From Nitrosopumilaceae archaeon (GTDB lineage: Archaea; Thermoproteota; Nitrososphaeria; Nitrososphaerales; Nitrosopumilaceae), in NCBI GenBank assembly GCA_965214835.1, contig CBDCCK010000002.1, positions 128,001-192,000 of the forward strand: a stretch of 64,000 nt of DNA, given 5' to 3'. The position numbers and the translations under genes are program-made. Shown here in pieces: positions 4,859-23,586 of the stretch (position 1 is its first letter; each line of letters opens with the position of its first letter). Below the pieces are notes generated by a model. It saw nothing but the letters and a program-made list of their open reading frames with translations. It had not been told where the DNA came from and did not search any database.

Positions 4859-5101
4859 ATGTCGGATTTGCGGTTTTTATGCAAAGCACGTACCGTAAGT
4901 GTGGCAGACAGGGACGACACGGATCCAAATGACAGGCTGGACAGGATCGAGGAAAGACTGGTCAGGCTGGAGGGCATGGTCAGGGACGGAGGTCTGCAGG
5001 GATCGCAGGCCGGCGCACCGGATTCGGAGCCGTCACGTGAAGGCATTGGGGATTTCATTTCGCATACAATAAGGCTGGAGCGCCTCATTGGAAGGGGATA
5101 G
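4859..5101 (+). CDS. Hypothetical small coiled-coil protein
   Basis: RLDRIEERLVRLE heptad; lies between two co-oriented genes. Confidence 0.4.
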   Translation: MSDLRFLCKARTVSVADRDDTDPNDRLDRIEERLVRLEGMVRDGGLQGSQAGAPDSEPSREGIGDFISHTIRLERLIGRG

Positions 5102-5897
5102 GACGTCACGCGGGGGAATCGCACAGTTGTCAGACAGCAGACAGGCCGACGGGAGCACGATAATCAACGACGACTGCATCGACGGGATGAGATCACTTGA
5201 CGACGGGTCGGTGGATCTGATAGTTACTGATCCCCCGTTTGCCATAGGCTTCGGGGCCAGAAGATCAAACTACAACCGCAGACCGGACAACGTCCTGGAC
5301 GGATACGGCGAAATCAGGCAAAGGGACTATCTTTCCTTCAGCCGGAGCTGGATCAGCGAGGCATATGGGGTTCTCAGGGAGTCCGGAAGCATGTTTGTCT
5401 TTTCGGGATGGAGCAACCTGAAGGACGTCCTGATTGCACTGGATGAGGCCGGTTTCATCACGGTCAACCACATAATCTGGAGATACCAGTTCGGGGTCGT
5501 TACAAAGAAAAGGTACGTCACATCCCATTATCACTGCCTCTATGTCTGCAAGGACGACAAAAAAAGAAGGTTCTACCCGGATTCCCGCTTCGGGCCCGGC
5601 AGCGAAAGGTACAGGGACATGGAGGACGTATGGTACATCAGGCGCGAGTACTGGAGGAACGAAAAGAAGACGCCCACCAAGCTGCCTTCGGAGATAATAA
5701 GAAAGATTCTCCAGTACGCAAGCAGGCCCGGTGATCTGGTCCTGGATCCCTTTCTGGGATCTGGCCAGGTGGCGGCAGTCAGCAAGGAGATGGGAAGGTG
5801 CTATCTGGGGTTTGAGATCATCAGGGAATACTTTGACTTTGCCAAAAGGCACATAGGGAAGACCCGGGCGCAGGAGACCTCAGGCAGCCGGTCATGA
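5088..5897 (+). CDS. Site-specific DNA methyltransferase (N6-A/N4-C, beta class), orphan
   Basis: Motif IV VTDPPF precedes motif I LVLDPFLGSG; TPTKLP. Confidence 0.92.
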   Translation: MEGDRTSRGGIAQLSDSRQADGSTIINDDCIDGMRSLDDGSVDLIVTDPPFAIGFGARRSNYNRRPDNVLDGYGEIRQRDYLSFSRSWISEAYGVLRESGSMFVFSGWSNLKDVLIALDEAGFITVNHIIWRYQFGVVTKKRYVTSHYHCLYVCKDDKKRRFYPDSRFGPGSERYRDMEDVWYIRREYWRNEKKTPTKLPSEIIRKILQYASRPGDLVLDPFLGSGQVAAVSKEMGRCYLGFEIIREYFDFAKRHIGKTRAQETSGSRS

Positions 5898-6030
5898 TGG
5901 CGGGGCAGGCCCGACCGCAGCGGGGATTCCGCTTTGCATGATCCGGATCCCGTGGTTGACAATTATTACTCGTTTTGTGATTAATTTTAAATCAAGCCTG
6001 CCAAGTCGCGTCATATAGATCTGACACGGG

Positions 6031-6732
6031 TTGACACAAAGACGAATCGCTGATCATCGCAGGTTTGTGCCGGTGATTGCGGCACTGGTGCTGGCGTTAT
6101 CGGGCCCTGCATGCGTGCACGCCTCAGACGGGGCCGACGGCGGTGAGCTGGCAGGTGAGCTGAGAGGCATCCGAGAGTCGCTTGATGCCATCAACCTTAG
6201 CAATTCGCTGAACTTTATGATTGGGATCACAATCGCCTTCATAGCTATAATTGCCACCATCTATAACAGCAAAAAACTGAACAGGCAGCTGGCAATACAC
6301 GAGCGGGAGATCAAGTACAGGACAAGGCCTGTTCTTGTAAGGGGGCGCTATGATGACGGCAACACGTTCAGCATAAGGGATGCAGACCGCCGGTTATGGA
6401 TCAAGGTCACAAACGTCGGACCACTTCCGGCAGTCGGCATAAAACGTCGGATGCGATCAGGAATAGCCAGAAAGGACCGCAGCGCGGAGACGCTGGAGGA
6501 GATGCAGTATGTGTCAACCGACATGCCGTCAATAGGCCCCGACGAGTATGTCGACAACATAATACGCATGTCAGAGGAGGAATACGGCGAGCTGTGCGGC
6601 GGCGAGCGTTATTTCTTCGAGCTTGAAATAGAGTATGCAGAGCCAGAGAACAGGGAGAAGAGGTACCGCTATCACATACGCGGGCATTTTGAGAAGAGGA
6701 ACCTGATCCAGGATCATGTTGACATGAGCTAG
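6031..6732 (+). CDS. Membrane-anchored hypothetical protein
   Basis: Signal-like N-terminus, TM helix FMIGITIAFIAIIATIY, RPVL then beta-rich domain (VTNVGPLPA). Confidence 0.65.
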   Translation: MTQRRIADHRRFVPVIAALVLALSGPACVHASDGADGGELAGELRGIRESLDAINLSNSLNFMIGITIAFIAIIATIYNSKKLNRQLAIHEREIKYRTRPVLVRGRYDDGNTFSIRDADRRLWIKVTNVGPLPAVGIKRRMRSGIARKDRSAETLEEMQYVSTDMPSIGPDEYVDNIIRMSEEEYGELCGGERYFFELEIEYAEPENREKRYRYHIRGHFEKRNLIQDHVDMS

Positions 6733-7568
6733 GACCTTGTGCGCCCAGACCTGCACGAGTGGTACATCATGCCGGTATTGTATGATACGCCGGTCCTCCC
6801 CGTATAATCGACGGTTATCAGTCCTCCCAGGCCGCCGCGCATGCAGCCAAGCTCCCTTATTGCGAGATCTGCGGCCGCCTGTGCCGCCGCCCCGGATTCC
6901 ATTATATCGCACGCCCTTTTTGCGGCGCATGATTTCATCAGGACGTCCCCGTTTCCAGTAGTCACGGCCGCACCGGCCCCGTTTTTGGCGTAATATCCGG
7001 CACCCACTATTGCAGAGTCTCCGACCCTGCCGGGAGTCTTGCCCCACACTCCTCCGGTTGAGACTGCGGCGGCAAGGTCGCCATCCTTGTCGAGCACGAC
7101 ACATCCGACGGTTCCGTACTTTTCCCTTGCGGCCTCAAGCCCTCTCAGTTGCACTCTTCCTGGCGCCATCTCGTGCTTCTGTATCCCATGGGAGCGTGCA
7201 AACTCGGATGCGCCGCCGCCTGTAACGAGGGAATGGGCAGATCCGGACATGACGTACCATGCCACCCTTATGGGGTTCCTGACATGCTTGATGGCCCCGA
7301 CACCCCCGCATTCCATGGTTTTCCCGTTCATCATCCCGGCATCCATCTCGATGGTGCCGTCGCTGGTGAGGCAGGAGCCTGCCCCCGCGTTGAATGCGCC
7401 GTCATCCTCCATCCTGGTAATGCAGTGGAGTGCCACATCAACTGCGCGTCCTCCGCCATCGAGGATTGAGTAGGACTCGTCGGCAATGCAGTTGATTGTA
7501 ATTAACACACCGTCATCAGGCGTTCCATCCCCTGCCCCGCCGTGAACTAGGATGCCGTGTTTTGACAT
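6729..7568 (-). CDS. iaaA: Isoaspartyl peptidase/L-asparaginase (Ntn hydrolase)
   Basis: VHGGAG, FNAGAGS, EMDAG, nucleophile GTVG, STGG...GRVGDS, TGNGD. Confidence 0.93.
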   Translation of the reverse strand: MSKHGILVHGGAGDGTPDDGVLITINCIADESYSILDGGGRAVDVALHCITRMEDDGAFNAGAGSCLTSDGTIEMDAGMMNGKTMECGGVGAIKHVRNPIRVAWYVMSGSAHSLVTGGGASEFARSHGIQKHEMAPGRVQLRGLEAAREKYGTVGCVVLDKDGDLAAAVSTGGVWGKTPGRVGDSAIVGAGYYAKNGAGAAVTTGNGDVLMKSCAAKRACDIMESGAAAQAAADLAIRELGCMRGGLGGLITVDYTGRTGVSYNTGMMYHSCRSGRTRS

Positions 7569-7820
7569 GTATCTACAACTCGCGACGATCATATTTAACC
7601 TATCAATGCCGGCACCGTGCAAGTTCATCCCATGCACAAACCGCGGCTTAATAGCAAACGGCAGTGAATATGACATGGCGTCGACTGTGATACATGGGGG
7701 CATATCTACACTTGCGATAGCTGCCGGCGTGGCAACACTGCTGGTAGGTTACGCGGTGCACATACTTGGGATAGGCCCGCGCAATTGAAGATGTCATACC
7801 AATGTCGGTGTCTGATATTA

Positions 7821-8367
7821 GCTTCAATGGGACCACGACATTATCGTCGCGGAAATGGATGATGGCGCCGTCTTCGCCTGCCGTCATAACGGGCTTCAAT
7901 GGGGCCGCAACTTTATCGTCGCGGAAAGATATAATGCGAGATTTAACACAGGAACTCGGAAACTTGCTTCAATGGGGCCGCAACTTTATCGTCGCGGAAA
8001 GGTCGGAACCATGGGACGGATTGGCGGGACGGGAGGACGCTTCAATGGGGCCGCAACTTTATCGTCGCGGAAAGGTCGGAACCATGGGACGGATTGGCGG
8101 GACGGGAGGACGCTTCAATGGGGCCGCGACATTACCGTCGCGGAAATTCGTGAGGGCCCTGGAAATGATGATGCGTATATCACAGCTTCAATGGGGCCGC
8201 GACATTACCGTCGCGGAAATAGCTTTCTGCATATGCCGTTACATGCATCGTCATTACGCTTCAATGGGGCCGCGACATTACCGTCGCGGAAATTGGGTAA
8301 TGACGTGACTACCATATCCCTGCAGGGCAACGCTTCAATGGGGCCGCGACATTACCGTCGCGGAAAT
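7821..8367 (-). CRISPR. CRISPR mini-array: 8 x 36-bp type I-G-like repeats, 7 spacers (36-38 bp)
   Basis: Repeats start at 7821, 7893, 7966, 8039, 8112, 8185, 8258, 8332; consensus GCTTCAATGGGGCCGCGACATTACCGTCGCGGAAAT (reverse complement ends ATTGAAGC). Degenerate repeat at 7821 marks the trailer, so the leader is to the right. Spacers 3 and 4 are identical. Confidence 0.97.
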
Positions 8368-8593
8368 ACTGCAATGCCGACAGGTTCGGCCATTGCCTGT
8401 GCGTGACAGGCATCTTTTTTGTACAGCCCTTGCGTTTTTCGCACCACACATGCCGCGATGGCATGCGTCCTCACACTCACATATAATACATTTTCAAGCG
8501 CCTCCTCACAGCGGTGGTACCCAGGATCCCTCGCATGCCACGCCTGCCGGTGACACCAGAGACATACGTGACGATCTGACGCATATGCAGGAT

Positions 8594-8821
8594 CTACCAC
8601 GCATCCGGAACCGACAGAGCAAGTATGACCATCAGGAATCCGTAAATGACAATCGGAATCCAGAGCGAGTGGATGAGGTGTTTTTTTGCGGCATCGTTGT
8701 TGCGGTCCTTCCATACCAGATAGCATATCAGCCCCGATATTACCCAGAAGAACACGTGCGCGACCCACCACAGCCTTGACGGGGCCTGCCTGGCGTCACC
8801 GTGGATATCTTCGTCTGACAT
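8594..8821 (-). CDS. Small 2-TM membrane protein (paralogue of 33527-33775)
   Basis: PSRLWWVAHVFFWVISGLICYLVWKDRN...HLIHSLWIP shared with the second copy. Confidence 0.75.
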   Translation of the reverse strand: MSDEDIHGDARQAPSRLWWVAHVFFWVISGLICYLVWKDRNNDAAKKHLIHSLWIPIVIYGFLMVILALSVPDAW

Positions 8822-9362
8822 GCCATCCCAAACCGGGTTTTGTTAATAAACGCAGAAACGGCGGATTCGGAAGCAGGGCAGCTGTTACACCTTCTTGCAT
8901 CACTCGGCGGCCAACATCAGGAATTATCATGCCATGAGTTGACAGAACCTTTTCTCGAACAAGTTATAACCGGCAGTGGCGCCATGTACCGCATACTGTC
9001 ATGACGCAAAGAACCGAATCCAGTCTTGAAAAAACAGTTCTGGACATATATGCCAGTGATCAAAGCATCCTGAAATACCTCGTACAGTCGCACGGCAGGG
9101 TAAGATATCGAAAAAGAACGCGATGACATCCCGTCAGATAAGGCGTGACGGGTTGCCGCTTTTGTCTGGTTGCCGGGGCGTCGTGCCTCCAGTCCGGCCT
9201 CGGTTTTACACGATTTTTTGTATGAATTCGTCCCTAATGGCAAATCCAGACAAAACCCACAGTCAATTTCGGATCTATCTGTGATCAAAATCAGGTGCTT
9301 TTTTTAAAACGAGAAACGAAGTCATGCATCCAACAAACTAGAAGCCAGGCAATCCTTTTAAT

Positions 9363-9992
9363 TTGGCAGATTACAGTCAATGCATGGCTGTAACGCCTGC
9401 TGTCTCAGGTAATCCTCAATCCATGCCAGGATCACCCCTGATCGAGATAAGGGACATCTCCGGGATTGCGGCACGGCAGCTTCTGCAGGCAGTGAAGATT
9501 TACAGGAATTCGTTTCCGGCAAACGAGTCAAGGCCCGTAGGCGACGTCATGGAGTTACTGGAGCGCGGCGTCTACACGATGTATGCCGCCGTCGATGGCA
9601 GCGGGGCCGACGCGCCGGTCGCCGGATTCATGCTGCTGTATCCGCTGGACTCTGATTGTGTATTGCTTGACTATATGGCCGTGCGGGCAGGCGCTCGCGG
9701 GCGCGGCACAGGCAGCATCATGATGGGATATCTGAGGGATCACGTCCTGGGAACGTACGGGACTGTCCTGCTTGAGATTCAGCTGCCGCAGGGCGACGGC
9801 ATCCAGGCCAAGCGCGACAGGATCAGGTTTTATGTCTCGCACGGCGTCAGGCCGCTGACTGACAGCTATGTGATGCCAGGGTACGGCAGGGACGGCAGCG
9901 AGGTGATGAGCCTGATGTATATGGGCAGAAGGCCGGAGGATATTGGGCAGGTGACTGCAAGTATTCACTTTCGGGTATACGGCAAGGATTAG
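9363..9992 (+). CDS. GNAT family N-acetyltransferase
   Basis: IYRNSFPANESR, LLDYMAVRAGARGRGTGS (acetyl-CoA motif A), RIRFY. Confidence 0.85.
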   Translation: MADYSQCMAVTPAVSGNPQSMPGSPLIEIRDISGIAARQLLQAVKIYRNSFPANESRPVGDVMELLERGVYTMYAAVDGSGADAPVAGFMLLYPLDSDCVLLDYMAVRAGARGRGTGSIMMGYLRDHVLGTYGTVLLEIQLPQGDGIQAKRDRIRFYVSHGVRPLTDSYVMPGYGRDGSEVMSLMYMGRRPEDIGQVTASIHFRVYGKD

Positions 9993-10026
9993 TTCAGAGG
10001 CAGCGGCGGGGAAGGAAGGGACTGGC

Positions 10027-10425
10027 TCACCGTATCTCGACTACCTTGGTCCTGACTATGGTGCTGCCGTCGGTCCCCGACGCATCCACTATGAGCGTTA
10101 TATGCGTGGCCCCTTCTGCGCCGTCCACTATTCCAGATATCAGTCCGGACGATCTTCCTGCGGGCAGGGAGGCGCCGGGCTGGTCCACTGCCAGATCAGA
10201 CGGGGTGCTGACCGACAGGCCGGATATGTCCACGTTGCCTATGTTGTGCAGCGAGTAGCTCAGCAGCACGTCGCCGGACTGGGACAGGCGCCTGGCCTCG
10301 GCGCTCACCTGCAGGTCAAGCCGGTCAATGTCAAACTGCCCGGAGCTGAATGCAACTGCCAGCACGACGGGAACGATGACGCCGGCCGCAAGAAAAATCG
10401 CCAGGTATTCAGAAGAGAGGTTCAT
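10027..10425 (-). CDS. Pilin-like/secreted protein
   Basis: N-terminal hydrophobic helix then beta domain with LHNIGNVDI; resembles 42178-42633 and 42702-43268. Confidence 0.6.
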   Translation of the reverse strand: MNLSSEYLAIFLAAGVIVPVVLAVAFSSGQFDIDRLDLQVSAEARRLSQSGDVLLSYSLHNIGNVDISGLSVSTPSDLAVDQPGASLPAGRSSGLISGIVDGAEGATHITLIVDASGTDGSTIVRTKVVEIR

Positions 10426-10928
10426 TTCCTTACGTACCTTTTCAGCCTGGAGACGGCGGCCAGTATCTCGTCCATGCTACGGCCCCCGACTACTGCGTGA
10501 TACCCGTACGCCTTGACGTCGCAGCCGCCGATGCGGATCTGGACGCGCGCAAACCTCTCGTTGGATCTTATGTATCCCGGGGCGCCGCGCAGCCTGTCTA
10601 GGTCCAGCATCCTGCCGTCAAAGGAGACGTGCGTCACCACGTACCGCACGGTGAACTTTTCGACGGTCCTGATCTTCATGCCGAGCCTTTTGAGCAGCGA
10701 GACGAACGCCCTTGCCGCGCCGACTGCCGCCTTCTCGGAGGTGGAGCCGACCGACGTCACCCTTCCGGAATCGTACAGGTATATCATGGCGCCGCCGGAC
10801 GGCACGTACAGGGCAGGAAGGCCGTTGGGGCGGTACTGGGCATCGCGGACGCTGCGGACTATGGCCTCCGGGTCGTGCCCGGATATCATGCCGGCGGCAA
10901 TTACGTTGTCCACCTTTACCATCATCAT
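10422..10928 (-). CDS. Divergent TATA-box-binding-protein (TBP)-like protein
   Basis: VDNVIA...YRPNGLPALY...LYDSGRVTSVGSTS (TBP repeat 1) and VRYVVT...LDLDRL...ERFARV...VVGGRS (repeat 2); 168 aa; ATGA overlap with the upstream gene. Confidence 0.7.
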   Translation of the reverse strand: MMMVKVDNVIAAGMISGHDPEAIVRSVRDAQYRPNGLPALYVPSGGAMIYLYDSGRVTSVGSTSEKAAVGAARAFVSLLKRLGMKIRTVEKFTVRYVVTHVSFDGRMLDLDRLRGAPGYIRSNERFARVQIRIGGCDVKAYGYHAVVGGRSMDEILAAVSRLKRYVRK

Positions 10929-11329
10929 TTCCCGGGATTCTCCATCCTCCTCTTGACGATGATCGACCTGACGGCCTCTATGTTGTTGGCAACGGCGCAC
11001 AGGTGGATCATGCCGACAAAGAACGGCAGGAACGCGTCGGCCATTATGACGTACCATCCGAGGCAGACCGCTATGCCTGCCGAGAATATCACCATGATTG
11101 CATGGTACGGGCCCATGTGGCGGCGGAGGATGCCGAACATGGCGTTCTTCTCGTACCGTTCAAAGTCGCGCACCCGTATGGTGGTAAAGGCGTCAGCCGC
11201 AAAGCAGACCGTGTAAAACGACATGGCCACTGCCATCCCGTGGCCGCCAAGCAGCGTGTGCGCAAACACCCCGGTCACAAACGAGAAGGAAAGCGTTATG
11301 ATTCCGATAAAAAGGGGGATGAGGTTCAT
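10925..11329 (-). CDS. Multi-pass membrane protein in transfer operon
   Basis: Four hydrophobic segments; translationally coupled to the TBP-like gene. Confidence 0.7.
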   Translation of the reverse strand: MNLIPLFIGIITLSFSFVTGVFAHTLLGGHGMAVAMSFYTVCFAADAFTTIRVRDFERYEKNAMFGILRRHMGPYHAIMVIFSAGIAVCLGWYVIMADAFLPFFVGMIHLCAVANNIEAVRSIIVKRRMENPGK

Positions 11330-11338
11330 GCCGGGCTC

Positions 11339-11698
11339 TCACCTGGCACGTGCCACGTATGCTGTAGTACCGGCTGCCGCCGTCCGCATCCTGGCGGCGC
11401 AGTGTCTGCACGGAGTGTCCATGCGAAGGGTTATTCCGACCATGACGGATCCGCCTATGATGACCAGGTATATTGCCATCTGCATGTACACCTTCATCTC
11501 AGAAAAGAAGTCAGTCATGAATCCGCCGAAGATCCTGTCGTCCTCGTCGGCCAGATCCGTCGTGTCGACTGCAAACAGGCTGTCGGCCGCATAAAGTGAT
11601 CCCGCTATGATCACGATGCCGATTATCATGTACATCGGCGATCCGCGTAGCGCGTCTGACAGATCCTCGCCCTTTCGTTTTTCTATCATGGAATCCAC
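11339..11698 (-). CDS. 2-TM membrane protein in transfer operon
   Basis: Two TM helices, directly downstream of the VirD4-like gene. Confidence 0.6.
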   Translation of the reverse strand: MDSMIEKRKGEDLSDALRGSPMYMIIGIVIIAGSLYAADSLFAVDTTDLADEDDRIFGGFMTDFFSEMKVYMQMAIYLVIIGGSVMVGITLRMDTPCRHCAARMRTAAAGTTAYVARAR

Positions 11699-11712
11699 AG
11701 GACGGTTAGAAT

Positions 11713-14709
11713 TTAAACCCTAGATTGACTGTCTTCCCTCTTTTTTCCCATCCTGTACAGGTGCGCCCTGCCGCCCTTCCTCATGCGTATGGCATACCCC
11801 ATATCGGCTATCTGGCCTGCGATATAGTCGACCTCGTCGCGCTTTGAGGGATCGTTCCTGTTGGATTCCCACATCTGCAGGAGCCGCTGGCAGTGCAGCC
11901 GCTCGGCGTCTGCCTGCGGGCGGTCCCCGTCACCGTCGTCCTCCTTTGCTACAGCCGCTGCTGCTGCTTCTGCGTCATGCGGCCCGTCCTCGCAGTCCGG
12001 AGCCGGAAGCGCCGGAATCCTTTCCTGCGCGGCATCTGCTGCAGTGGTGGCGTCGTTGCCGTCATTATCACCGTCGGCATCGACATCAGCTGCATCCGTT
12101 GTGGCATCTGCAAATGTCACCGGTCCGGCGGATTCTTCTGCGGTATCCGGAGTGCCGTGGGGGATATGAGAACCGGACGGGGTCGCCGCCTCCGCTGCAG
12201 GCTGCTGCCCGGAGCCCTCATTCGCGACACCGCCGCCATCATCTGCGGTGTCGCCGGCATCCGCAGGCCGCCGTCCCGCCTTCAGGTGCTCATACCATCC
12301 GGCCTTGTTGTACGTGTCAACCCTGTCAGTGTCACGACCGCTGGCGACGGCCCCGTCCCTGGCAGCTGTATGGAGGGGGACCGGATCATCATCGTTCTGG
12401 CCGCCACCGTCCGCGTCTCCGCCGCCGGCATCAGCAGGGGGCGACACGCTGCCGCGTCCCCTGTACAGCACGTCCATGTCCTCGGGCCCGAGATCGCCGG
12501 ACTTGTCGGGGAGCAGCGGCCTGACTCCCGGCAGCGACCAGACGACATACAGCGACGGATCCTGCACGCGCCTGCCGTCCGCATCTCCGCCCCGGCCGGT
12601 GATGCCGCTCCTTTCCAGCCTGCCTTCCAGCCCCTGCAGCGACGCGATGACGTCTGCCTCGTCAAACTGCCATACTGAGTCGCAGACGAACCGCTGGGTG
12701 GCAGTCCCGCCTGCGCCCGAGAGCACCTCCATGATGCGGGCCTCACAGGCCGACATTGATCTTATGTTCTCGGATTTCGTATCAGTCAGGTGTGTCCTGT
12801 CCATTACCGTGAGCCGGTACTTGTCGCGCGAGACGCCGTTCTGCTTCATTGTATCGTGCATCCTCTCGGCCGTTGCCGCATCAAAGACGACAAACCAGAC
12901 TGAGTGGCCCAGCGCAGACGACTTTTGCCAGTTTACATACACCTGCTCCCAGTGCTTGCCTGGCCCCGTCTCGACCTCGACTGCCGTGATATCATCAGAC
13001 CACTCCGACGGGTTGAACAGTACGTCTTTGCGGCCGTCCCTGTCCCTGACGGGCTTGGGCGAGTATATCACGAGGTCTGCCTGCTTGGCCGCCCCCCTCC
13101 CGAGATCGGGAACGCAGTACCTCCCGTTGTTGACGTTGATCTCCATTATGGCAAATATGGCAGACAGGTGGAGGTCCCCTCCGGCCCTGCGGCCTGCGGC
13201 CGACCTCGAGAACAGGTTGTGCATGGCAGACTTTGTTATGGTGTATCTTGACTCGAACTTTTCGTCGCCGTCATCGCTTACCGTGTCGTGCTGGGAGACG
13301 TACCCGTTTGTGGCAATCAGCGTGTCGTGCAGCGCCGAGGAGACGTGCCGGGCGTCAGTCGCGTACCTGCGCAGCATGGCATCCGTTATCTCCTTTTTTG
13401 TCATGTCTCGGCTTTCTGTGCGCAGCAGGTTGAGTATCCCGAACTCCAGCGGCGTCAACTGCACGTCTGCGCCCCCGCCGCTCTGCGTGTAGTATTTGTC
13501 AAGGGAGACGAACTTGCCCAGCCGCATGACGCTGTGCCGCGAGGCCTCCTCGGAGCGGTCAGGTATCTCCATGTGGCGCGTCTTTGCCACCGCCTTTACC
13601 GGATTCGTGCCCCCCGACCAGAACGAAAAGTGGTGGAACGGCAGCTGCGTCTGCCGCTCGGGCTTTATCGGCAGTATGGACTTGAGCGAGGCGGCAGTCG
13701 TCGCGTCGCACCTGAAACAGGCGATTGCGCGGCACAGCGTCGGCAGCTCGGCTGCAAACTCGCGCTCTATGGCAGACGTTGACTGGGTGGCAATGGTCGC
13801 CTTGATGCCGTACTTGCGGACGGTATTGAGCAGCTCCCTGATCATGGGCTCTGAGAACATCTGCACCTCGTCCAGGTACAGGTTAAACGGCGCAAACCCC
13901 CCGCCGGGCTGGCGCTGTCTCTTGAGGTACGCGGTATAGAACAGGTGAAGAAACACGTTTCCCAGAAACTTTGTCATGTCGTTTGTCACCCCGCCAAAGT
14001 CCAGCACCACGTACATTCCCCGGTTCAGTATGTCCTCAAACGTTATGGAGGAGCGGCGCGTGTTGAACATCGCATCAAGCTCCGGGACGGTAAGCATCTT
14101 GTTGAGCTTGTTGAAGATGACGCCGCCTGCCTCCTTTGGATACTGCTCCCAGTATACCCTGGTGAAAAAGTCGCGGGCCTGCCGGTTCTGTATCTGTCCG
14201 ACGAACCCCTCGGAGAACTCCTTGTCCGTAAGAAGGCGGATCATGGCGCCAAGCGTGTCTGACTGCGTCCCGATTACGGCAAGTGCGCCGTTTCTGGCGC
14301 ACGTCTCCACGCGGGCCCCCCACGAGTCCGAGAACGCCTTTGCCAGGCATTCTGTGAACGTCAGCGAGACCATTCCCGCCTCGTGGGGATCGTCTATCTG
14401 CAGCGGGTTGAACCTTAGCGTCTTGTCAAGCTTCTTGATCGAGGAGAGGCTGACGTACACTATCCGGTCGTACTGCTCTGGCGGTATCAGCGAGAGGACC
14501 TCGCGGGACAGCTCCGAGTGGTTCTCTGCAAGCAGAAAGCCCCTTCCGGCCTTGATATCCTGCAGGATGAGCAGCCTCAGGACGCTTGACTTGCCGGAGC
14601 CTATCTCGCCGAGTATCAGCATGTTCTGCCGGGCCCTGTACGGCATCGTGAGGACCTTGCGGCCTGCCAGGTATCCGATTACCGAGTGATCGTGCGGGTT
14701 GACCGACAT
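11713..14709 (-). CDS. VirD4/TraD-like coupling ATPase fused to wHTH and PD-(D/E)xK-like domains
   Basis: Walker A GEIGSGKS, Walker B LYLDEVQ, RKYGI..TIATQ; C-terminal half ADLVIY...TAVEVETG; acidic low-complexity tail. Confidence 0.8.
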   Translation of the reverse strand: MSVNPHDHSVIGYLAGRKVLTMPYRARQNMLILGEIGSGKSSVLRLLILQDIKAGRGFLLAENHSELSREVLSLIPPEQYDRIVYVSLSSIKKLDKTLRFNPLQIDDPHEAGMVSLTFTECLAKAFSDSWGARVETCARNGALAVIGTQSDTLGAMIRLLTDKEFSEGFVGQIQNRQARDFFTRVYWEQYPKEAGGVIFNKLNKMLTVPELDAMFNTRRSSITFEDILNRGMYVVLDFGGVTNDMTKFLGNVFLHLFYTAYLKRQRQPGGGFAPFNLYLDEVQMFSEPMIRELLNTVRKYGIKATIATQSTSAIEREFAAELPTLCRAIACFRCDATTAASLKSILPIKPERQTQLPFHHFSFWSGGTNPVKAVAKTRHMEIPDRSEEASRHSVMRLGKFVSLDKYYTQSGGGADVQLTPLEFGILNLLRTESRDMTKKEITDAMLRRYATDARHVSSALHDTLIATNGYVSQHDTVSDDGDEKFESRYTITKSAMHNLFSRSAAGRRAGGDLHLSAIFAIMEINVNNGRYCVPDLGRGAAKQADLVIYSPKPVRDRDGRKDVLFNPSEWSDDITAVEVETGPGKHWEQVYVNWQKSSALGHSVWFVVFDAATAERMHDTMKQNGVSRDKYRLTVMDRTHLTDTKSENIRSMSACEARIMEVLSGAGGTATQRFVCDSVWQFDEADVIASLQGLEGRLERSGITGRGGDADGRRVQDPSLYVVWSLPGVRPLLPDKSGDLGPEDMDVLYRGRGSVSPPADAGGGDADGGGQNDDDPVPLHTAARDGAVASGRDTDRVDTYNKAGWYEHLKAGRRPADAGDTADDGGGVANEGSGQQPAAEAATPSGSHIPHGTPDTAEESAGPVTFADATTDAADVDADGDNDGNDATTAADAAQERIPALPAPDCEDGPHDAEAAAAAVAKEDDGDGDRPQADAERLHCQRLLQMWESNRNDPSKRDEVDYIAGQIADMGYAIRMRKGGRAHLYRMGKKREDSQSRV

Positions 14710-14721
14710 CGGCCGGGCCCC

Positions 14722-16563
14722 TCACCTCGGCCTGAACAGCTCCAGCTGCTCCTGGTCGGGAAGCACGTCGACCGGGACCACGGAGTTGCCAAAGCGCACG
14801 AGCGCCTGCCCGCGCCGCATCCGCATCAGCCAGTTGCTCATCTCGCCAGACAGCACAAAGTGCTCGTTGAGGGCGCGCGACGTGGCCTCGGACTGGCGCA
14901 GAAACATCACGGTGTCCGAGTTGACCAGGACGTTGCGGGCCGCCTCGTTTGCTGTCATGTCCTCGATGTTCTGCGTTGCCATGAGCATGTTGATGTTGTA
15001 CTTTCTTCCTCGGCGGGAGAGGTGCTGTATATAGTCTCCCAGCGGCCCGTGCTGGAGGAGCATCCACACCTCGTCGAGCATGAACAGCTTGGGGACTGTC
15101 TTTGACATCATCAGCGAGCGGCCAAGCGCGTACGACAGAGCTATCTGGGTTATCAGGCGGTGGACCGTCCCGCCCGCGGAGCCCACGTTCTTGAGGGAGA
15201 GTATGACGCGCTTTGTGTCCGGCGCCATGCCCCGGAAAAAGTCCTCGTACGGGTGGTGGCACAGCATCCTGAACTGGCCGAGCACCTGCCTGTCCTCGGG
15301 CTCCGTGTGCTTTTCCACCGCATCCACAAATCTGAAAAAGCTGCGCTCCTCCATCGGCATGTTCGACATGTCGGTGGCCGCCATGTTCGCGGGCATCCTC
15401 TTTTCCTCGGGTATGAGCAGCGCGTCGCACAGCGTCTCGGAGGCCGCAAAGGCGTCGGGCACCATCCGGAATAAATCGAGGCCCATCTGCTTGCCCGTCG
15501 AATAGTCCAGGTACGTAAAGCCCATCGAGTCGCCCAGCGCGCGGTACTCGGACTCGGGGTCTATCCCGAATATGAACGCCTCCGGATACATCCGGTCAAA
15601 GGCGTGTATTATCATCATTGCAAGCGTCGTCTTGCCGGATCCTGACAGCGCCGCAAGCACGGTGTTGCGGTTTATGCGGTTGTTGATGTTCCACCGGAAC
15701 GGGTTGCCGGTTACCGTATTGACTCCGAGCAGTATGCCGCCGTCCTCGTAGAGCTCCGACGTCGAGAACGGGACGAGCGCCGCAAAGGTCTCCGTTATGG
15801 CAAGCATCTGCTGGCCCTGCTCCCCTGCAAGCATCTGCGACTGGACGTGGCGCGCAGTCTCCACCCCGGGTACCCCGCGCATGTCTGCCTCGAATACGCG
15901 GGCGCGCTCCCTCAGCTTCTGGTAGTCAAGGGCAAACACCAGCGGTATTATCCGCATCGTATACAGCGACGTCTGGTTTCCGGTTATCATCTCCTTGATT
16001 GCCCGCGCGCTTGCGGCCACGTCGACGCCGCTTGCCGACGAGTCCGTGCTTGAGGAGGCCATGTGGCTTGCAACAACGGAATGCCGCTTTTCGGGTGGGA
16101 TCGGGTTCACGAACATCCTGACGGCATCGGCCTTGGAGTATATGCCGTATATCCACCCTGGGGGCAGCTCGTCGGCAAGCATCCCGATGGTGTACGCCTT
16201 GCAGTATATCCCCGACTTTAGCACGGTACAGTCGGTGTGCTCCCTCTCGACGTCCCATCGGCGGACCTCCGCCGGGCCCGACGATATCGGGGCGACGATA
16301 TGTTCTGCCTCCTTTTCTGCGGTTGTCAGCATGACAGTATCCATCGGGCACCTGCGGACCGTCTTGTTGAATGACAGCTCCTCATAGTCGCGTATGACGT
16401 CCACCGTGAACGGCTCGCGCAGCCTTGAGAGCACGCCGGTATAGTTTGACACCAGGACGTCGCGCTCTGAAACGTCCGATACGGTGCTCTCCGGGTTTGA
16501 GAACATGATGTTTATCGGGCTCAGCCTGAATGCCCTGGGCTTGCCGCGCGTCCTTTTTGGCAT
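14722..16563 (-). CDS. VirB4-like conjugation ATPase
   Basis: GILLGVN, NRN..ALSGSGKT (Walker A), IDPESEY, FMLDEVW (Walker B), RRGRKYN..MATQ. Confidence 0.88.
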   Translation of the reverse strand: MPKRTRGKPRAFRLSPINIMFSNPESTVSDVSERDVLVSNYTGVLSRLREPFTVDVIRDYEELSFNKTVRRCPMDTVMLTTAEKEAEHIVAPISSGPAEVRRWDVEREHTDCTVLKSGIYCKAYTIGMLADELPPGWIYGIYSKADAVRMFVNPIPPEKRHSVVASHMASSSTDSSASGVDVAASARAIKEMITGNQTSLYTMRIIPLVFALDYQKLRERARVFEADMRGVPGVETARHVQSQMLAGEQGQQMLAITETFAALVPFSTSELYEDGGILLGVNTVTGNPFRWNINNRINRNTVLAALSGSGKTTLAMMIIHAFDRMYPEAFIFGIDPESEYRALGDSMGFTYLDYSTGKQMGLDLFRMVPDAFAASETLCDALLIPEEKRMPANMAATDMSNMPMEERSFFRFVDAVEKHTEPEDRQVLGQFRMLCHHPYEDFFRGMAPDTKRVILSLKNVGSAGGTVHRLITQIALSYALGRSLMMSKTVPKLFMLDEVWMLLQHGPLGDYIQHLSRRGRKYNINMLMATQNIEDMTANEAARNVLVNSDTVMFLRQSEATSRALNEHFVLSGEMSNWLMRMRRGQALVRFGNSVVPVDVLPDQEQLELFRPR

Positions 16564-16608
16564 GTACCCTGCGACACGGCAGATATCATATAAAGCTGGA
16601 TTGGGGCC

Positions 16609-17694
16609 TTACGGTCCGTGCCCGTCGACGGAGCAGTTGTACTCTGCTGCTGCCGCGTTGTAGCTGTCGACTGCGTCGTTGTAGCTGTCCCCCAGGCGGT
16701 CATGGCCGGCGGCGGCCTCCTCCATCTGCGCCTCGACGCCCCTTATCCTTTCCAGAAGATCCCCGAGCTGGACGTACAGCGATTCTGCCTGCCCGTGGTC
16801 TCCTGCTCCTGTTGCGGCTGCGGCCAGCCGCTCGTACCTGCCGCCAAGCTGCTCGTACCGCTCCACGAGCCTCCCGTGCTCTGTCTCCATGCGATCAAGA
16901 CTCCTGACGATTCCGTCCATTTCTTCCTCAAGCCCTGCCATCTGCGACTCTGATGCCTGCATCCTGGCAAGTATCGGGGTTACCGCGTCAAACTGCAGGT
17001 GCTCGGCTGCCTGCGGTATGTCGTACCCGAGATCGTCAAAGGATTCCGGCAGTACACCCGGCGGGTCGCGCGTCCCGTACATCAGGTGGGACTCGTCTGT
17101 GACGTGTCCCAGTCCCAGGTGGTGGCCCAGCTCGTGGGCTATGGTGTCTGCCATCATCTCCCCGGAGTACGGGCGGAACGTGCCGTCGCACCACGGCCTG
17201 CCGGTCTCGACTGTTATCGTTGCAGGCCGGCCCGGAAGCGACGGGTGCTCGTACAGCCCGACTGTATCGCCCTCTATCCTGTCTGTAAGCACTATCACGA
17301 CGTCGCCGTCTGCCACATCCCCCACCAGGCGTACCGTTCCCGGATTGTCAGCGTTCCACATGGCGGCCGCCTGCCTTGCGGCAGCACCGGCTGCAGCAGC
17401 AGCAGCGGCGGCGGCGGCACCGTCTCCTGCCGACTCCCGGTCGACTGCCATTCTTACCGGAGGCCCGCCGCTCTCCTGGGCGCCGGCATTGACGGATGCG
17501 TGATGATGCGCCGGAGGCTGCCTGTCATGCGCGCCCGGCTCCACCGCGCTCTGCTGCCTGTCTGCGGCAGTCTCCCCCGGCCCGGCCCCGCCGCCGTCCG
17601 TGCCTCCTCCCGTGCCGCTTATCCCGAACCACGCGATTCCGGATATCACCGCGACCACTATGATCCCGGTTATTATTCCAGACATGCCATACAT
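16609..17694 (-). CDS. Membrane-anchored matrixin-type zinc metalloprotease with C-terminal coiled coil
   Basis: HELGHHLGLGH zinc motif, Met-turn HLMY, N-terminal TM helix. Confidence 0.85.
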   Translation of the reverse strand: MYGMSGIITGIIVVAVISGIAWFGISGTGGGTDGGGAGPGETAADRQQSAVEPGAHDRQPPAHHHASVNAGAQESGGPPVRMAVDRESAGDGAAAAAAAAAAGAAARQAAAMWNADNPGTVRLVGDVADGDVVIVLTDRIEGDTVGLYEHPSLPGRPATITVETGRPWCDGTFRPYSGEMMADTIAHELGHHLGLGHVTDESHLMYGTRDPPGVLPESFDDLGYDIPQAAEHLQFDAVTPILARMQASESQMAGLEEEMDGIVRSLDRMETEHGRLVERYEQLGGRYERLAAAATGAGDHGQAESLYVQLGDLLERIRGVEAQMEEAAAGHDRLGDSYNDAVDSYNAAAAEYNCSVDGHGP

Positions 17695-17867
17695 GAGGCA
17701 TTCCCGCTATTAAGGCCCGTGGCATGCCCGGGACAGTTGCGCGTTTATATCGAATTTGCTGTACGGATGGCAGGCCGCCGCCAAAAACATTCATTCGTTC
17801 ATTCTGGCGATGTTCTCACGTGCGGCGGTGGTCCCGCATTCCGCATGGCTGCCGTCGTTGCCGGCGG

Positions 17868-19805: not shown

Positions 19806-20208
19806 GCAGCAGGCGCCAGTGCCGCTCCACGTCTGCGTACATTCTCCGGCTGTCCCGGGCCCAGTGCGGCGCGGTACTGCACTGGAAGCGCACGATCATT
19901 CTGTGGGGCGAGGTCTGGCGGCGCGGATGCGGGTTCACGTCTGCGTACCTTCTCCAGTCGTCCCGGGCCCAGTGTGGTGCTTTATCGCACCGGAGGCGCA
20001 CGATCATCTTGTGGGGCGAAAGTGGGGGGAGGCGGCTCCGCGCTGTTGTAACCGGGACACCGGCATGTCCGTTACGATACACGGTACTGCGTCCGGCGGT
20101 ATTGCCGTATGCATCTACCGGCACACCGCTGCCGCCGTCCCACTCTGGGTGTGCCTCCCTGGCCGCCTTTTTTTCTGTCCGTTTTTTCGTGTCCGGCATT
20201 ATGAGCAT
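19783..20208 (-). CDS. Hypothetical protein with 36-aa tandem repeat
   Basis: 108-bp imperfect tandem duplication (copies start 19828 and 19936) encoding SPHxMIVR..C..APHWARD..RxYADV. Confidence 0.45.
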   Translation of the reverse strand: MLIMPDTKKRTEKKAAREAHPEWDGGSGVPVDAYGNTAGRSTVYRNGHAGVPVTTARSRLPPLSPHKMIVRLRCDKAPHWARDDWRRYADVNPHPRRQTSPHRMIVRFQCSTAPHWARDSRRMYADVERHWRLLRAGRRRG

Positions 20209-20333
20209 GTTTGGAGGGCGCAGGTTATAAGGATAAAATCGCGAAGGTGCCCCGACCTGGAGGATTGCGCGTTACCGGTGTGATTACTGACTCTGGAAGT
20301 TCAGGCATGGGTTTTGTTACTGATTGTAAGTTA

Positions 20334-20418
20334 CGTGGAAGGCGGGATTCGAACCCGCGGATCGGTTAGAATCAATTGCTTAGGAGACAACCGCTATACC
20401 TGGCTAAGCGACTTCCAC
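20334..20418 (-). tRNA. tRNA with CCT (Arg) anticodon and atypical long variable arm
   Basis: Acceptor GTGGAAG/CTTCCAC, anticodon loop CTCCTAA, T-arm GCGGG-TTCGAAT-CCCGC, variable arm GATT-CTAACC-GATC. Confidence 0.75.
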
Positions 20419-20713
20419 ATGATTCTGTCTTTACGTAATGATAAAAATGTTCTAGGGCTGATCCTAACCTTTGTCTCCCACCCTAGAACCGCCTAATCGA
20501 TTAATCCAATCTGCATGACAGAGAGGACCGCGAGCGCGAAGGCAATATTGGATTTCAAAGGCTATTATATAATTATTTGTTAGCCCAGGAGCTGGGACAT
20601 TAACGGGTGTTTATTCTCCTTGGGACATGCTGGGTGCTGGAAATCTCAGATTTTGAAGACTTAAAAACAGCATGGTCGTATGCAATTATCAGTATGGTGA
20701 TGACCTTAACTGG

Positions 20714-23577: not shown

Positions 23578-23586
23578 TCAATCATC

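What the first reader, a model, noticed from the sequence alone, without database searches (positions are those of the whole stretch)
10422..10928. Divergent TBP-like protein embedded in the transfer operon
Seen: a 168-aa protein with two TBP-like repeats, translationally coupled between a membrane gene and a pilin-like gene. Several TATA-contacting positions differ from the TBP consensus (FPGL becomes LPAL, IF.SGK becomes LYDSGR and AYGYH, and the repeat-2 Asn is lost). Known: TBP uses Phe pairs and Asn residues to bend the TATA box. Inference: an element-specific basal factor with altered specificity, a TFB-sequestering decoy, or a TBP fold co-opted as an oriT-bending relaxosome accessory protein.
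Basis: partly seen in the sequence, partly recalled or inferred. Interest (0 to 1): 0.75.

Follow-up and report, generated by a model that had tools for sequence, protein, structure and literature searches.

The report
TBP-fold protein in archaeal conjugation cassette
A small gene inside an archaeal DNA-transfer gene cluster encodes a diverged copy of the TATA-binding protein that always travels with the transfer machinery, so it probably bends DNA for that machinery instead of starting transcription in the usual way.

Summary
Window 10422-10928 (-) encodes a 168-aa protein with a complete two-repeat TBP saddle: Pfam TBP is above its cut-off, the profile match to TBPs has 99.8% probability over both repeats, the AF2 model has pLDDT 95, and TM to solved TBPs is 0.78-0.87. 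It is not the host's core TBP, which lies elsewhere in the genome. It founds a small, basic, fast-evolving family ("TBPL") that is monophyletic against other TBPs.

TBPL was found in 11 of 401 Nitrososphaeria genomes. These are exactly the 11 that carry one clade of VirB4. In all of them TBPL sits in a fixed, overlapping four-gene cassette (p119-p134-TBPL-p132), usually just after VirB4-VirD4.

The four DNA-kinking aromatic positions, the repeat-1 Asn and the SGK Lys are kept in the family. The repeat-2 Asn and the two TFB-docking glutamates are not.

My best reading (inferred, about 0.5) is a TFB-independent DNA-bending protein dedicated to the transfer module. It may present DNA to a VirD4 that carries a winged-helix and a nuclease-like domain. 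The main rival is an element-specific transcription factor. A TFB decoy and a Rep_trans-type nickase are disfavoured. No paper found describes it.

The parts
10422..10928 (-). TBPL: a 168-aa divergent two-repeat TBP-fold protein, pI 10.2
10925..11329 (-). p134: a 134-aa integral membrane protein whose stop overlaps the TBPL start. Polar residues D46, T50, E60, N62 and N116 are invariant.
   Evidence: Hydropathy and alignment A3. It lies directly upstream of TBPL in all 11 genomes that have TBPL. Weak homologues lie near other VirB4 clades.
11339..11698 (-). p119: a 119-aa protein with two hydrophobic helices and an acidic loop. It is a candidate VirB2-type pilin (inference).
   Evidence: Homologues precede p134 in 10 of 11 other loci.
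10027..10425 (-). p132: a 132-aa protein with an N-terminal membrane anchor. Its start overlaps the TBPL stop.
   Evidence: Homologues follow TBPL in 8 of 11 other loci.
11713..14709 (-). VirD4-like coupling ATPase, 998 aa, with a conserved C-terminal module. The module holds a winged helix (13207-13464) and a PD-(D/E)XK-like domain (12769-13185).
   Evidence: Pfam TraG-D_C and T4SS-DNA_transf. It is 56-63% identical to homologues in 8 loci. Alignment A4 has invariant D136, D146, E179, E181 and K186 in fragment numbering. AF2 pLDDT is 75.9. VIA gives MarR-type wHTH at Z about 10 and the PaqCI EN domain at Z 9.1 (PMC10201449 passages).
14722..16563 (-). VirB4-like ATPase, 613 aa
   Evidence: Pfam P-loop_TraG and AAA_10. 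Homologues of 47% identity or more occur only in the 11 TBPL genomes.

Best explanation
SHOWN. The gene encodes a genuine but strongly diverged member of the TBP family with a complete two-repeat saddle. It is not the cell's basal TBP. It belongs to a small, basic, fast-evolving family (TBPL). In the genomes searched, TBPL occurs only together with one clade of VirB4/VirD4 conjugation-type clusters of Nitrosopumilaceae. There it sits in a fixed cassette, p119 - p134 - TBPL - p132, with overlapping start and stop codons.

INFERRED. The family keeps the four aromatic 'kink' positions, the repeat-1 Asn and Val, and the SGK lysine. It has not kept the repeat-2 Asn or the two glutamates that dock TFB. 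I therefore read TBPL as a TFB-independent architectural protein. It would still sit astride duplex DNA and bend it, with altered, asymmetric specificity, and would serve the transfer module rather than general transcription.

FAVOURED SUB-MECHANISM (about 0.35 on its own). TBPL marks and bends a cis site on the element and presents the DNA to the neighbouring VirD4 coupling ATPase. In this clade VirD4 carries its own winged-helix and PD-(D/E)XK-like domains. TBPL would then play the part that DNA-bending accessory proteins play in bacterial relaxosomes. As with F-plasmid TraY (recalled), the same binding could also regulate the transfer operon.
For: Fold and family.
- Pfam TBP matches at 31.6 bits against a cut-off of 22.9, and 13 of 13 family members match.
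- hhalign against TBPs gives 99.8% probability over 165 columns.
- AF2 pLDDT is 95.3.
- Every listed Foldseek row to rank 44 is a TBP, TMq 0.78-0.87.

Not the core TBP.
- A canonical TBP lies elsewhere in the genome.
- TBPL (21 rows) is one clade against 22 other TBPs with 100/100 support.

Linkage to the transfer genes.
- Full-length TBPL (over 160 bits) occurs in 11 of 401 genomes.
- VirB4 of 47% identity or more occurs in the same 11 of 401, while 87 further genomes with more distant VirB4 have no TBPL.
- TBPL and VirB4 share a contig in 10 of the 11 genomes. They lie 1.1-6.3 kb apart in 9 of these and 16 kb apart in 1.
- Strong p134 matches lie directly beside TBPL in 11 of 11 genomes.
- The p134 and TBPL ORFs abut or overlap in all 11 other loci.

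DNA-facing residues (n = 13).
- Repeat-1 Asn: 13 of 13.
- First repeat-1 aromatic: F10, Y2, L1.
- Second repeat-1 aromatic: F8, Y5.
- SGK position: K12, R1.
- Repeat-2 aromatics: F13, and Y11 F2.
- All 21 unique members are basic, pI 8.3-10.4.

Loss of the TFB signature.
- C.L3.2 reads E4 S2 D2 R2 M1 K1 N1 and C.L3.4 reads E3 D2 R2 P2 K2 Q2.
- These two glutamates contact TFB/TFIIB, and charge reversal there reduces transcription in vitro (PMC7221094 passages).

Context.
- No TFB (PF00382) lies in the window or next to TBPL in 10 other genomes.
- VirD4 has a wHTH plus a nuclease-like module.
- Archaeal conjugative elements have no recognised relaxase (PMC9905601 and PMC6563490 passages).
- TBPL is only 27-35% identical between loci, against 46-57% for VirB4 and 56-63% for VirD4. 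That pattern fits a specificity determinant.
Against: - No DNA binding, bending or target site is shown. I found no cis element specific to the cluster: the one repeated promoter-like 22-mer is a genome-wide type.
- The default function of a TBP paralogue is transcription. Thaumarchaeal ICEs are reported to carry their own TFIIB homologues (PMC6563490 passages), and divergent TFB-like ORFs lie 16-110 kb from TBPL in several of the genomes.
- This copy has Leu at one kink position (L37).
- Other VirB4 clades do without TBPL, so it is not a general requirement of thaumarchaeal conjugation.
- The nuclease-like assignment of VirD4 rests on a middling Z of 9.1, a model of pLDDT 76 and a motif reading.
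- Neither an integrase nor element ends were found in the window.
- Eight of the eleven genomes are one genus, so the co-occurrence counts are not independent.
- The DNA-contact positions are taken from recalled TBP literature and mapped through an alignment, not measured on the model.
Confidence: 0.5

Rival explanations
1. TBPL is an element-specific basal transcription factor. It recognises variant TATA-like boxes on the element and recruits RNA polymerase through a cognate TFB, either element-borne or one of the many host TFB paralogues. This would be an orthogonal TBP-TFB pair like those proposed for large DNA viruses.
For: - TBPL is a member of the TBP family and keeps the DNA-facing aromatics.
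- Viral TBPs also vary at C.L3.2 and C.L3.4 and co-occur with their own TFIIB (PMC7221094 passages).
- All thaumarchaeal ICEs described so far encode TFIIB homologues (PMC6563490 passages).
- Divergent TFB-like ORFs lie 16 kb (G257), 47 kb (G160), 58 kb (G313), 61 kb (G100) and 80 kb (G357) from TBPL. Two of them were confirmed by Pfam.
- These genomes carry many TFB and several TBP genes.
Against: - No TFB is adjacent to TBPL in any of the 11 genomes. None lies within about 100 kb in G186, G240 or G283, and none lies in the window.
- The nearest TFB-like ORFs in the window's genome sit beside a family-B polymerase and an integrase-like ORF 107 kb away, which looks like another element.
- ICE clades without TBPL still need transcription, so the ICE TFBs work without it.
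- The gene is wedged, with overlapping codons, between membrane-protein genes rather than among regulatory genes.
Confidence: 0.25
2. TBPL is a promoter-occluding regulator. It binds TATA-like boxes but cannot recruit TFB. It would so repress or time the transfer operon, or damp host promoters during transfer, acting as a natural dominant-negative TBP.
For: - The kink aromatics and the basic character are kept while the TFB-docking glutamates are not.
- The gene sits inside the operon it could feed back on.
Against: - No target was identified.
- A repressor need not be co-inherited so strictly with p134 or be codon-coupled to membrane proteins.
- This rival overlaps the best explanation, since a dual role like that of TraY is possible.
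Confidence: 0.12
3. The TBP fold has been re-used as a protein-binding or scaffold part of the secretion machine and no longer binds DNA. TBP domains do serve protein-protein contacts in eukaryotic COPG and adaptins (PMC3597702 passage).
For: - TBPL is strictly coupled with p134.
- The most conserved stretch is stirrup 1, Y-R-P-N-G-F-P, which could be a protein contact.
Against: - Conservation of all four kink aromatics and the repeat-1 Asn is hard to explain without DNA.
- All 21 members are basic.
Confidence: 0.08
4. TBPL is a Rep_trans / MOB_T-type nicking enzyme, that is, a relaxase with a TBP-like fold, and so the missing archaeal relaxase itself.
For: - Rep_trans and the archaeal Rep-Arvir initiators adopt a TBP-like fold and occur on plasmids, phages and conjugative transposons (PMC13107129 passages).
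- Archaeal elements lack a known relaxase.
Against: - PF02486 matches 0 of 13 members at E <= 1.
- No Rep_trans structure is among the Foldseek rows listed with E <= 0.001.
- No Tyr is invariant in 21 sequences: Y32 reads Y17 F4, Y141 reads Y17 F3 T1, and Y165 reads Y15 C4 H1 T1.
- The sequence relation is directly to TBP across both repeats.
- The protein is half the size of Rep_trans enzymes (size recalled).
Confidence: 0.03
5. TBPL is a TFB-sequestering decoy that binds host TFB off DNA.
For: Only the family membership.
Against: The TFB-contact glutamates are not conserved, while the DNA-facing residues are. That is the opposite of what a decoy needs.
Confidence: 0.02

Closest known systems
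Archaeal TATA-binding protein (Pfam PF00352; for example PDB 1mp9, 1ais, 1pcz, 2z8u)
   Same: - It has the same two-repeat saddle fold, with TMq 0.78-0.82 to these archaeal chains.
- The alignment is collinear over both repeats.
- The kink aromatics, the repeat-1 Asn and the SGK turn are kept.
   Different: - It is about 22% identical to the host TBP and forms a separate long-branched clade.
- The repeat-2 Asn is replaced by a hydrophobic residue.
- The TFB-docking glutamates are not conserved, and stirrup 1 is fixed as Y-R-P-N-G-F-P.
- It is encoded in a conjugation cassette, is patchily distributed (11 of 401 genomes), and is not the essential basal factor.
TBP-like proteins of large DNA viruses, with their own TFIIB (Ravarani et al. 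2020, PMC7221094, passages read)
   Same: It is carried by a mobile element, keeps the duplex-binding signature, and varies at C.L3.2 and C.L3.4.
   Different: No cognate TFB is linked to it here. It also sits among membrane and ATPase genes of a transfer apparatus.
TRF2 / TLF, a metazoan TBP-related factor (PMC4422821, passages read)
   Same: It is a TBP paralogue that has left canonical TATA recognition.
   Different: TRF2 does not bind TATA DNA and lacks the Phe pairs (recalled). TBPL keeps aromatic residues at all four positions in 20 of 21 members.
Relaxosome accessory DNA-bending proteins of bacterial conjugation (TraY, TraM, IHF; recalled, no call)
   Same: The proposed role is the same: a small basic DNA bender encoded in the transfer operon next to the coupling ATPase.
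   Different: The folds are unrelated (ribbon-helix-helix or IHF-like against a TBP saddle). No relaxase partner is known here, and the function of TBPL is untested.
Rep_trans / Rep-Arvir rolling-circle initiators with a TBP-like fold (PMC13107129, passages read)
   Same: They share the TBP-like fold, occur on mobile elements and process DNA.
   Different: TBPL has no Pfam match to Rep_trans and no conserved catalytic Tyr, and it has direct sequence homology to TBP proper.
Thaumarchaeal integrative-conjugative elements (Krupovic et al. 2019, PMC6563490; Abby et al. 2018, PMC5797428; passages read)
   Same: The cluster has the VirB4/VirD4 signature pair with small membrane and pilin-like genes, in ammonia-oxidising archaea.
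   Different: Neither main text mentions TBP or TATA (0 occurrences). Their supplements, which hold the gene-by-gene annotation, could not be seen. The TFIIB-ParB pair they report was not found in this window.

Membership tests
TBP family (PF00352, TBP-domain superfamily) | Sequence match to the family model above the curated cut-off | tested here: met
   The match is 31.6 bits against 22.9, on repeat 1 only. 13 of 13 family members match, best E 7e-14.
TBP family (PF00352, TBP-domain superfamily) | Two tandem TBP domains that form one saddle | tested here: met
   hhalign aligns 165 columns over both repeats. AF2 pLDDT is 95.3 with S1-H1-S2..S5-H2 twice. TMq to solved TBPs is 0.78-0.87.
TBP family (PF00352, TBP-domain superfamily) | Two pairs of DNA-kinking aromatic residues (positions recalled from the TBP literature, mapped by alignment) | tested here: met
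   In the family the four positions read F10 Y2 L1, F8 Y5, F13, and Y11 F2. This copy has L37, Y52, F126 and Y141, so three of four are aromatic.
TBP family (PF00352, TBP-domain superfamily) | Minor-groove Asn in strand S1 of both repeats | tested here: not met
   Repeat 1 has Asn in 13 of 13. Repeat 2 reads L5 M4 Y1 N1 V1 Q1, and this copy has Y96.
Basal transcription factor TBP (functional orthologue) | Acidic pair C.L3.2 / C.L3.4 that docks TFB/TFIIB | tested here: not met
   The positions are S122 and E124 here. In the family they are acidic in 6 of 13 and 5 of 13. Their role is taken from PMC7221094 passages.
Basal transcription factor TBP (functional orthologue) | Being the genome's core, universally present TBP | tested here: not met
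   A canonical TBP lies at G000:C2:3119153-3119668. TBPL occurs in only 11 of 401 genomes and forms a separate clade with 100/100 support.
Basal transcription factor TBP (functional orthologue) | TATA-box binding and support of transcription initiation | not testable with these tools
   This needs EMSA or in-vitro transcription.
Rep_trans / MOB_T nickases (TBP-like fold) | Match to PF02486 and an invariant catalytic Tyr | tested here: not met
   PF02486 matches 0 of 13 at E <= 1. No Tyr is invariant in 21 sequences.
Thaumarchaeal integrative-conjugative element (conjugation module) | Paired VirB4-like and VirD4-like ATPases with small membrane or pilin genes | tested here: met
   Pfam hits and synteny in 12 loci.
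Thaumarchaeal integrative-conjugative element (conjugation module) | Integrase and flanking attachment repeats that define a mobile unit | tested here: inconclusive
   There is no PF00589 match in the window; the nearest weak one lies at C2:24537, 104 kb upstream of the window start. No tRNA-derived direct repeat was found in 7000-21500. GC is 0.60-0.63 in 10-20 kb against 0.52-0.55 in the flanks.
Relaxosome accessory DNA bender (functional class) | Binds and bends the transfer origin and contacts the coupling protein | not testable with these tools
   No origin of transfer is known, and no DNA modelling tool was on hand.

The most novel reading that the evidence does not exclude
TBPL and the VirD4 of this clade, which is fused to a winged helix and a PD-(D/E)XK-like nuclease domain, together form an archaeal counterpart of the relaxosome. 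A TBP-derived saddle would recognise and sharply bend an origin of transfer. It would hand the DNA to a coupling ATPase that cuts it itself. This would explain why no relaxase has been found on archaeal conjugative elements. It would also be the first case of the TBP fold proper recruited from transcription into DNA transfer.
Probability: 0.25. Interest if true: 0.88.

Novelty: new variant of a known kind. Interest (0 to 1): 0.68.

Why it matters
How archaeal conjugative elements select and process their DNA is an open question. The papers read here state that no relaxase or accessory factor is recognisable on them (PMC9905601 and PMC6563490 passages).

This finding offers a concrete, easily expressed candidate for the DNA-recognition step. 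TBPL is a conserved, basic, DNA-bender-type protein hard-wired into the transfer cassette, next to a coupling ATPase with its own DNA-binding and nuclease-like domains.

For transcription biology, TBPL is a natural TBP variant. It keeps the kink residues but drops one central Asn and the TFB-docking pair. That makes it a ready-made probe of what those residues contribute.

If TBPL instead proves to be an orthogonal initiation factor, it would be a prokaryotic parallel to the viral TBP/TFIIB pairs.

Tried and rejected
- Word-indexed protein search: 187 candidates, none at E <= 1e-3. The exhaustive phmmer search was needed instead. It gave 51 hits at E <= 1e-3, 13 at <= 1e-10 and 0 at <= 1e-30. 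One of the 13, P0006, is a 48-aa fragment and was left out of alignment A1.
- IMG/VR viral contigs, PLSDB plasmids and GenBank phages hold no relative.
- The metagenome scan gave one locus, L011, with the same synteny.
- Complex prediction of p134 with TBPL returned no answer: score 0.00, mark 0.32, controls not run. I draw nothing from it.
- Sequencing runs: no RNA holder is listed, so nothing can be said on expression. Contigs of four runs laid on 5001-25000 show the cassette in runs of more than one study. In one run a contig has 648 other letters in place of 9219-10017. No element end and no empty site could be read from them.
- Cis-site hunt. AT-rich islands in 9900-20450 are few. The exact 22-mer at 20222-20243 (-) and 24091-24112 (+) looks like a shared promoter. 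Its 18-nt core occurs 5 times in the genome at up to 2 mismatches and in none of the 14 loci then held, so it is not a TBPL-specific site.
My repeat scan with a 60-nt distance limit missed them. Nothing links them to TBPL.
- TFB linkage: divergent TFB-like ORFs exist at 16-110 kb, but none is adjacent and none is next to a ParB in the stretches scanned. This stays unresolved.
- Integrase: none in the window.
- Foldseek on the VirD4 fragment found only the winged helix, at E about 4e-3. The nuclease-like match came only from VIA.
- The Atlas look-up only repeated 'TBP'.
- Not-in-print claim. Full-text searches and term look-ups in PMC6563490 and PMC5797428 found no description of a TBP-like gene in archaeal conjugative elements. 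Supplements were closed, and the gene tables of Krupovic et al. 2019 may annotate it.
- Papers. I read passages only, not whole texts, of PMC6563490, PMC9905601, PMC13107129, PMC3597702, PMC7221094, PMC4422821, PMC5797428 and PMC10201449.
- Recalled, from no call: the yeast and human numbering of TBP DNA contacts, the loss of the Phe pairs in TRF2, TraY/TraM/IHF as relaxosome accessories, the size of Rep_trans enzymes, and plasmid-borne TBPs of haloarchaea.
Full report
**What is there.** Window 10422-10928 (-) is an open frame of 168 codons. Its ATG overlaps the stop of the upstream 134-aa ORF (10925-11329, -) as ATGA. Its stop overlaps the ATG of the downstream 132-aa ORF (10027-10425, -) in the same way. 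Upstream on the same strand lie, with gaps of 9-14 nt, a 119-aa ORF (11339-11698), a 998-aa VirD4-like ATPase (11713-14709) and a 613-aa VirB4-like ATPase (14722-16563). The ATPases match Pfam TraG-D_C / T4SS-DNA_transf and P-loop_TraG / AAA_10. GC is 0.60-0.63 across 10-20 kb, against 0.52-0.55 on either side.

**It is a TBP-fold protein with both repeats.**
- Pfam PF00352 matches residues 4-81 at 31.6 bits (cut-off 22.9).
- phmmer against PDB sequences ranks archaeal TBPs first, at E 3.5e-6 to 4e-5.
- An exhaustive phmmer search of 1.84 billion representatives gave 51 proteins at E <= 1e-3 and 13 at <= 1e-10.
- Twelve full-length proteins of 162-182 aa were aligned with the query as A1. All 13 sequences of A1 match Pfam TBP.
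- A profile-profile comparison of A1 with 12 other TBPs, including the host's own, gives 99.8% probability (E 4e-29) over 165 collinear columns, so it covers both repeats.
- AlphaFold2 on A1 gives pLDDT 95.3 and pTM 0.83, with the order S1-H1-S2..S5-H2 twice.
- In Foldseek against the PDB, every listed row down to rank 44 is a TBP chain (TMq 0.78-0.87, rmsd 2.2-3.3 A). The next hit has TMq 0.42.
- The alignment behind the model is shallow (13 rows) and the TBP fold is well known to the predictor. The sequence evidence stands on its own.

**It is not the cell's TBP.** The same genome (3.22 Mb, 2 contigs) holds a canonical TBP at C2:3119153-3119668, whose two repeats score 103 and 97 bits. In a maximum-likelihood tree, 21 unique TBPL sequences form one clade against 22 other TBPs with 100/100 support, on a long branch. 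The 22 were picked from the weaker hits plus the host TBP. They are unnamed, so the tree says nothing about the donor lineage.

**Where the family occurs.**
- A profile search of 401 Nitrososphaeria genomes found full-length matches (163-224 bits) in 11, this genome included. All other matches, in 391 of 401 genomes overall, are ordinary TBPs at about 85 bits on profile positions 3-111.
- A search of the same handles with the window's VirB4 found homologues at E <= 1e-20 in 98 of 401. Only 11 genomes have one of 47% identity or more, and they are the same 11.
- TBPL and VirB4 share a contig in 10 of the 11 genomes. They lie 1.1-6.3 kb apart in 9 of these and 16 kb apart in 1 (G283). In G131 they lie on different contigs of a fragmented assembly.
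- Seven loci from named records are all Nitrosopumilus MAGs, and their coordinates coincide with G-handles of genus g3.
- The 11 genomes fall in three genera of one family (g3: 8, g5: 1, and g1: this genome only of its 4). The counts are therefore not independent events.
- Nothing was found in viral contigs, plasmids or phages. One metagenome contig has the same layout.

**The cassette.**
- In the 11 other loci examined (7 named, 1 metagenomic, 3 fetched by handle), blastp finds the p134 homologue directly upstream of TBPL in 10. The profile search supplies the eleventh, G240.
- p119 precedes p134 in 10 of 11, and p132 follows TBPL in 8 of 11.
- VirB4-VirD4 stand immediately upstream in 6 of 11 and within about 3 kb in 8 of 11.
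- The p134 and TBPL ORFs abut or overlap in all 11.
- p134 has weak relatives (26-42 bits) in 23 further genomes, many of them a few kb from the more distant VirB4 genes of those genomes. So p134 is a broader component of these machines, and TBPL is an addition specific to one clade.
- TBPL is 27-35% identical between loci. VirB4 is 46-57% and VirD4 56-63% identical.

**What the residues say.** I mapped the positions through hhalign onto the host TBP. The list of DNA contacts is recalled from the yeast and human TBP literature.
- The family keeps the repeat-1 Asn (13 of 13) and Val or Ile (12 of 13).
- It keeps the first aromatic pair (F10 Y2 L1, and F8 Y5), the SGK lysine (K12 R1) and the second aromatic pair (F13, and Y11 F2).
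- It does not keep the repeat-2 Asn (L5 M4 Y1 N1 V1 Q1) or the repeat-2 SGK lysine.
- It does not keep the two glutamates C.L3.2 and C.L3.4. According to Ravarani et al. 2020, these contact an Arg and a Thr of TFB/TFIIB, and their charge reversal reduces transcription in vitro (passages). They are acidic in only 6 and 5 of 13 family members.
- In 21 unique sequences the invariant residues are N8, P34, P38, S54, G55 and F126. The most conserved stretch is stirrup 1, Y-R-P-N-G-F-P. All 21 are basic, pI 8.3-10.4. No tyrosine is invariant.
- This copy is unusual in having Leu at the first kink position (L37).

**Reading.** Retention of all four kink positions separates TBPL from TRF2. TRF2 does not bind TATA DNA (PMC4422821 passages) and, as I recall, has lost the Phe pairs. 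This argues that the saddle still sits on and bends duplex DNA.

Loss of one central Asn and of the TFB-docking pair argues against a canonical TBP-TFB-promoter complex and against a TFB decoy. The absence of an invariant Tyr and of any PF02486 match argues against a Rep_trans-type nickase, although that family shares the fold (PMC13107129 passages).

The fixed, codon-coupled place between membrane-protein genes beside VirD4 suggests a protein made with, and for, the transfer apparatus.

**The neighbour matters.** All nine VirD4 homologues share a C-terminal module (alignment A4).
- Fragment residues 17-102 model as a MarR/PadR-type winged helix (VIA Z about 10; Foldseek probability 1.0 at E about 4e-3).
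- Residues 110-248 match the N-terminal PD-(D/E)xK endonuclease domain of PaqCI (Z 9.1, rmsd 3.6 A, 122 residues). The domain identity comes from PMC10201449 passages.
- Invariant acidic and basic residues are D136, D146, E179, E181 and K186.
- The model is of moderate quality (pLDDT 75.9) and the Z is middling, so 'nuclease-like' is a lead, not a finding.

Archaeal conjugative elements are said to lack any recognisable relaxase. My favoured mechanism is therefore that TBPL bends a cis site and presents DNA to this VirD4. This is inference throughout.

**The main rival.** TBPL could be an element-specific initiation factor paired with its own TFB. It cannot be excluded. Thaumarchaeal ICEs are reported to encode TFIIB homologues, and divergent TFB-like ORFs lie 16-110 kb from TBPL in several genomes. 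But none is adjacent and three genomes show none nearby. In this genome the nearest ones sit beside a family-B polymerase and an integrase-like ORF 107 kb away.

The element's ends and integrase were not found. 'ICE' here therefore means a conjugation-type cluster of deviant GC and patchy distribution, not a delimited element.

**Known or new.** Four full-text searches and term look-ups in the two papers that describe thaumarchaeal ICEs (0 occurrences of TBP or TATA in the main texts) found no description.

I rate TBPL a new variant of a known kind: a real TBP-family member in an undescribed, tightly conserved context, with a distinctive loss-and-retention pattern. Its function is untested.

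Noticed in passing
window 11713-14709 (-), especially 12769-13464: The VirD4-like coupling ATPase carries a conserved C-terminal module: a MarR/PadR-type winged helix followed by a domain matching the PD-(D/E)xK endonuclease domain of PaqCI (Z 9.1), with invariant D, D, E-x-E and K. The module is shared by all 9 homologues aligned. In this genome an extra acidic, low-complexity tail of about 270 aa follows.
   Followed up: partly
window 7819-8380: A CRISPR-like array has 8 repeats of about 36 nt at a spacing of 72-74 nt. One repeat-spacer unit is duplicated exactly (7966-8038 equals 8039-8111). It lies about 1.6 kb from the end of the transfer cluster.
   Followed up: no
window 20222-20243 (-) and 24091-24112 (+): An exact 22-nt promoter-like element is present in inverted orientation about 30 nt upstream of two divergent ORFs (19783-20208 - and 24133-26313 +). 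The pair brackets a 3.85-kb low-GC stretch holding a tRNA-Arg gene and an Eco57I-type methylase gene. The 18-nt core occurs 5 times in the genome at up to 2 mismatches.
   Followed up: partly
window 19812-20019: Two tandem copies of a 100-nt unit, 80% alike and 108 nt apart, lie in GC-rich DNA upstream of the 645-aa ORF, inside the possible ORF 19783-20208.
   Followed up: no
window 20333-20419 (-), 48244-48317 (+), 54875-54969 (+): ARAGORN calls an 87-nt tRNA-Arg(CCT) and a 95-nt tRNA-Ile(GAT), both long enough to hold introns, and one tRNA of undetermined identity. The tRNA-Arg lies between genes that have homologues in the Nitrosopumilus elements, so it sits inside or at a joint of the mobile region.
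   Followed up: no
window 10925-11329 (-) and alignment A3: The small membrane protein p134 has invariant polar residues within or beside its hydrophobic segments: D46, T50, E60, N62 (motif D..ST....K....E.NP) and N116, with H109 nearly invariant. This pattern suggests an enzyme or ion-binding site rather than a mere scaffold. No Pfam family matches.
   Followed up: partly
window 16609-17694 (-): A 361-aa protein has an N-terminal membrane anchor, a matrixin-type (M10) HExxH metallopeptidase match (25.5 bits) and a coiled-coil-like tail. It is encoded just upstream of VirB4, and homologues lie in two Nitrosopumilus loci.
   Followed up: no
G000:C2:24537-36271 (outside the window; L017): An integrase-like ORF (below the Pfam cut-off), two divergent TFB-like ORFs and a family-B DNA polymerase lie together about 92-104 kb upstream of the window start. 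This is either another mobile element or the far end of a very large one.
   Followed up: partly
window 9219-10017 (GNAT acetyltransferase gene 9363-9992 +): In contigs of one public run, a related strain has 648 other letters in place of this stretch, joined to sequence matching 9011-9218 and 10018-10556. The gene next to the cassette's end is therefore variable.
   Followed up: no
genomes of family f1: Most Nitrosopumilaceae genomes give 4-9 TBP-domain matches, which means 2-4 TBP genes, and 10-20 TFB-repeat matches. General-factor paralogy is therefore the norm in this lineage.
   Followed up: no
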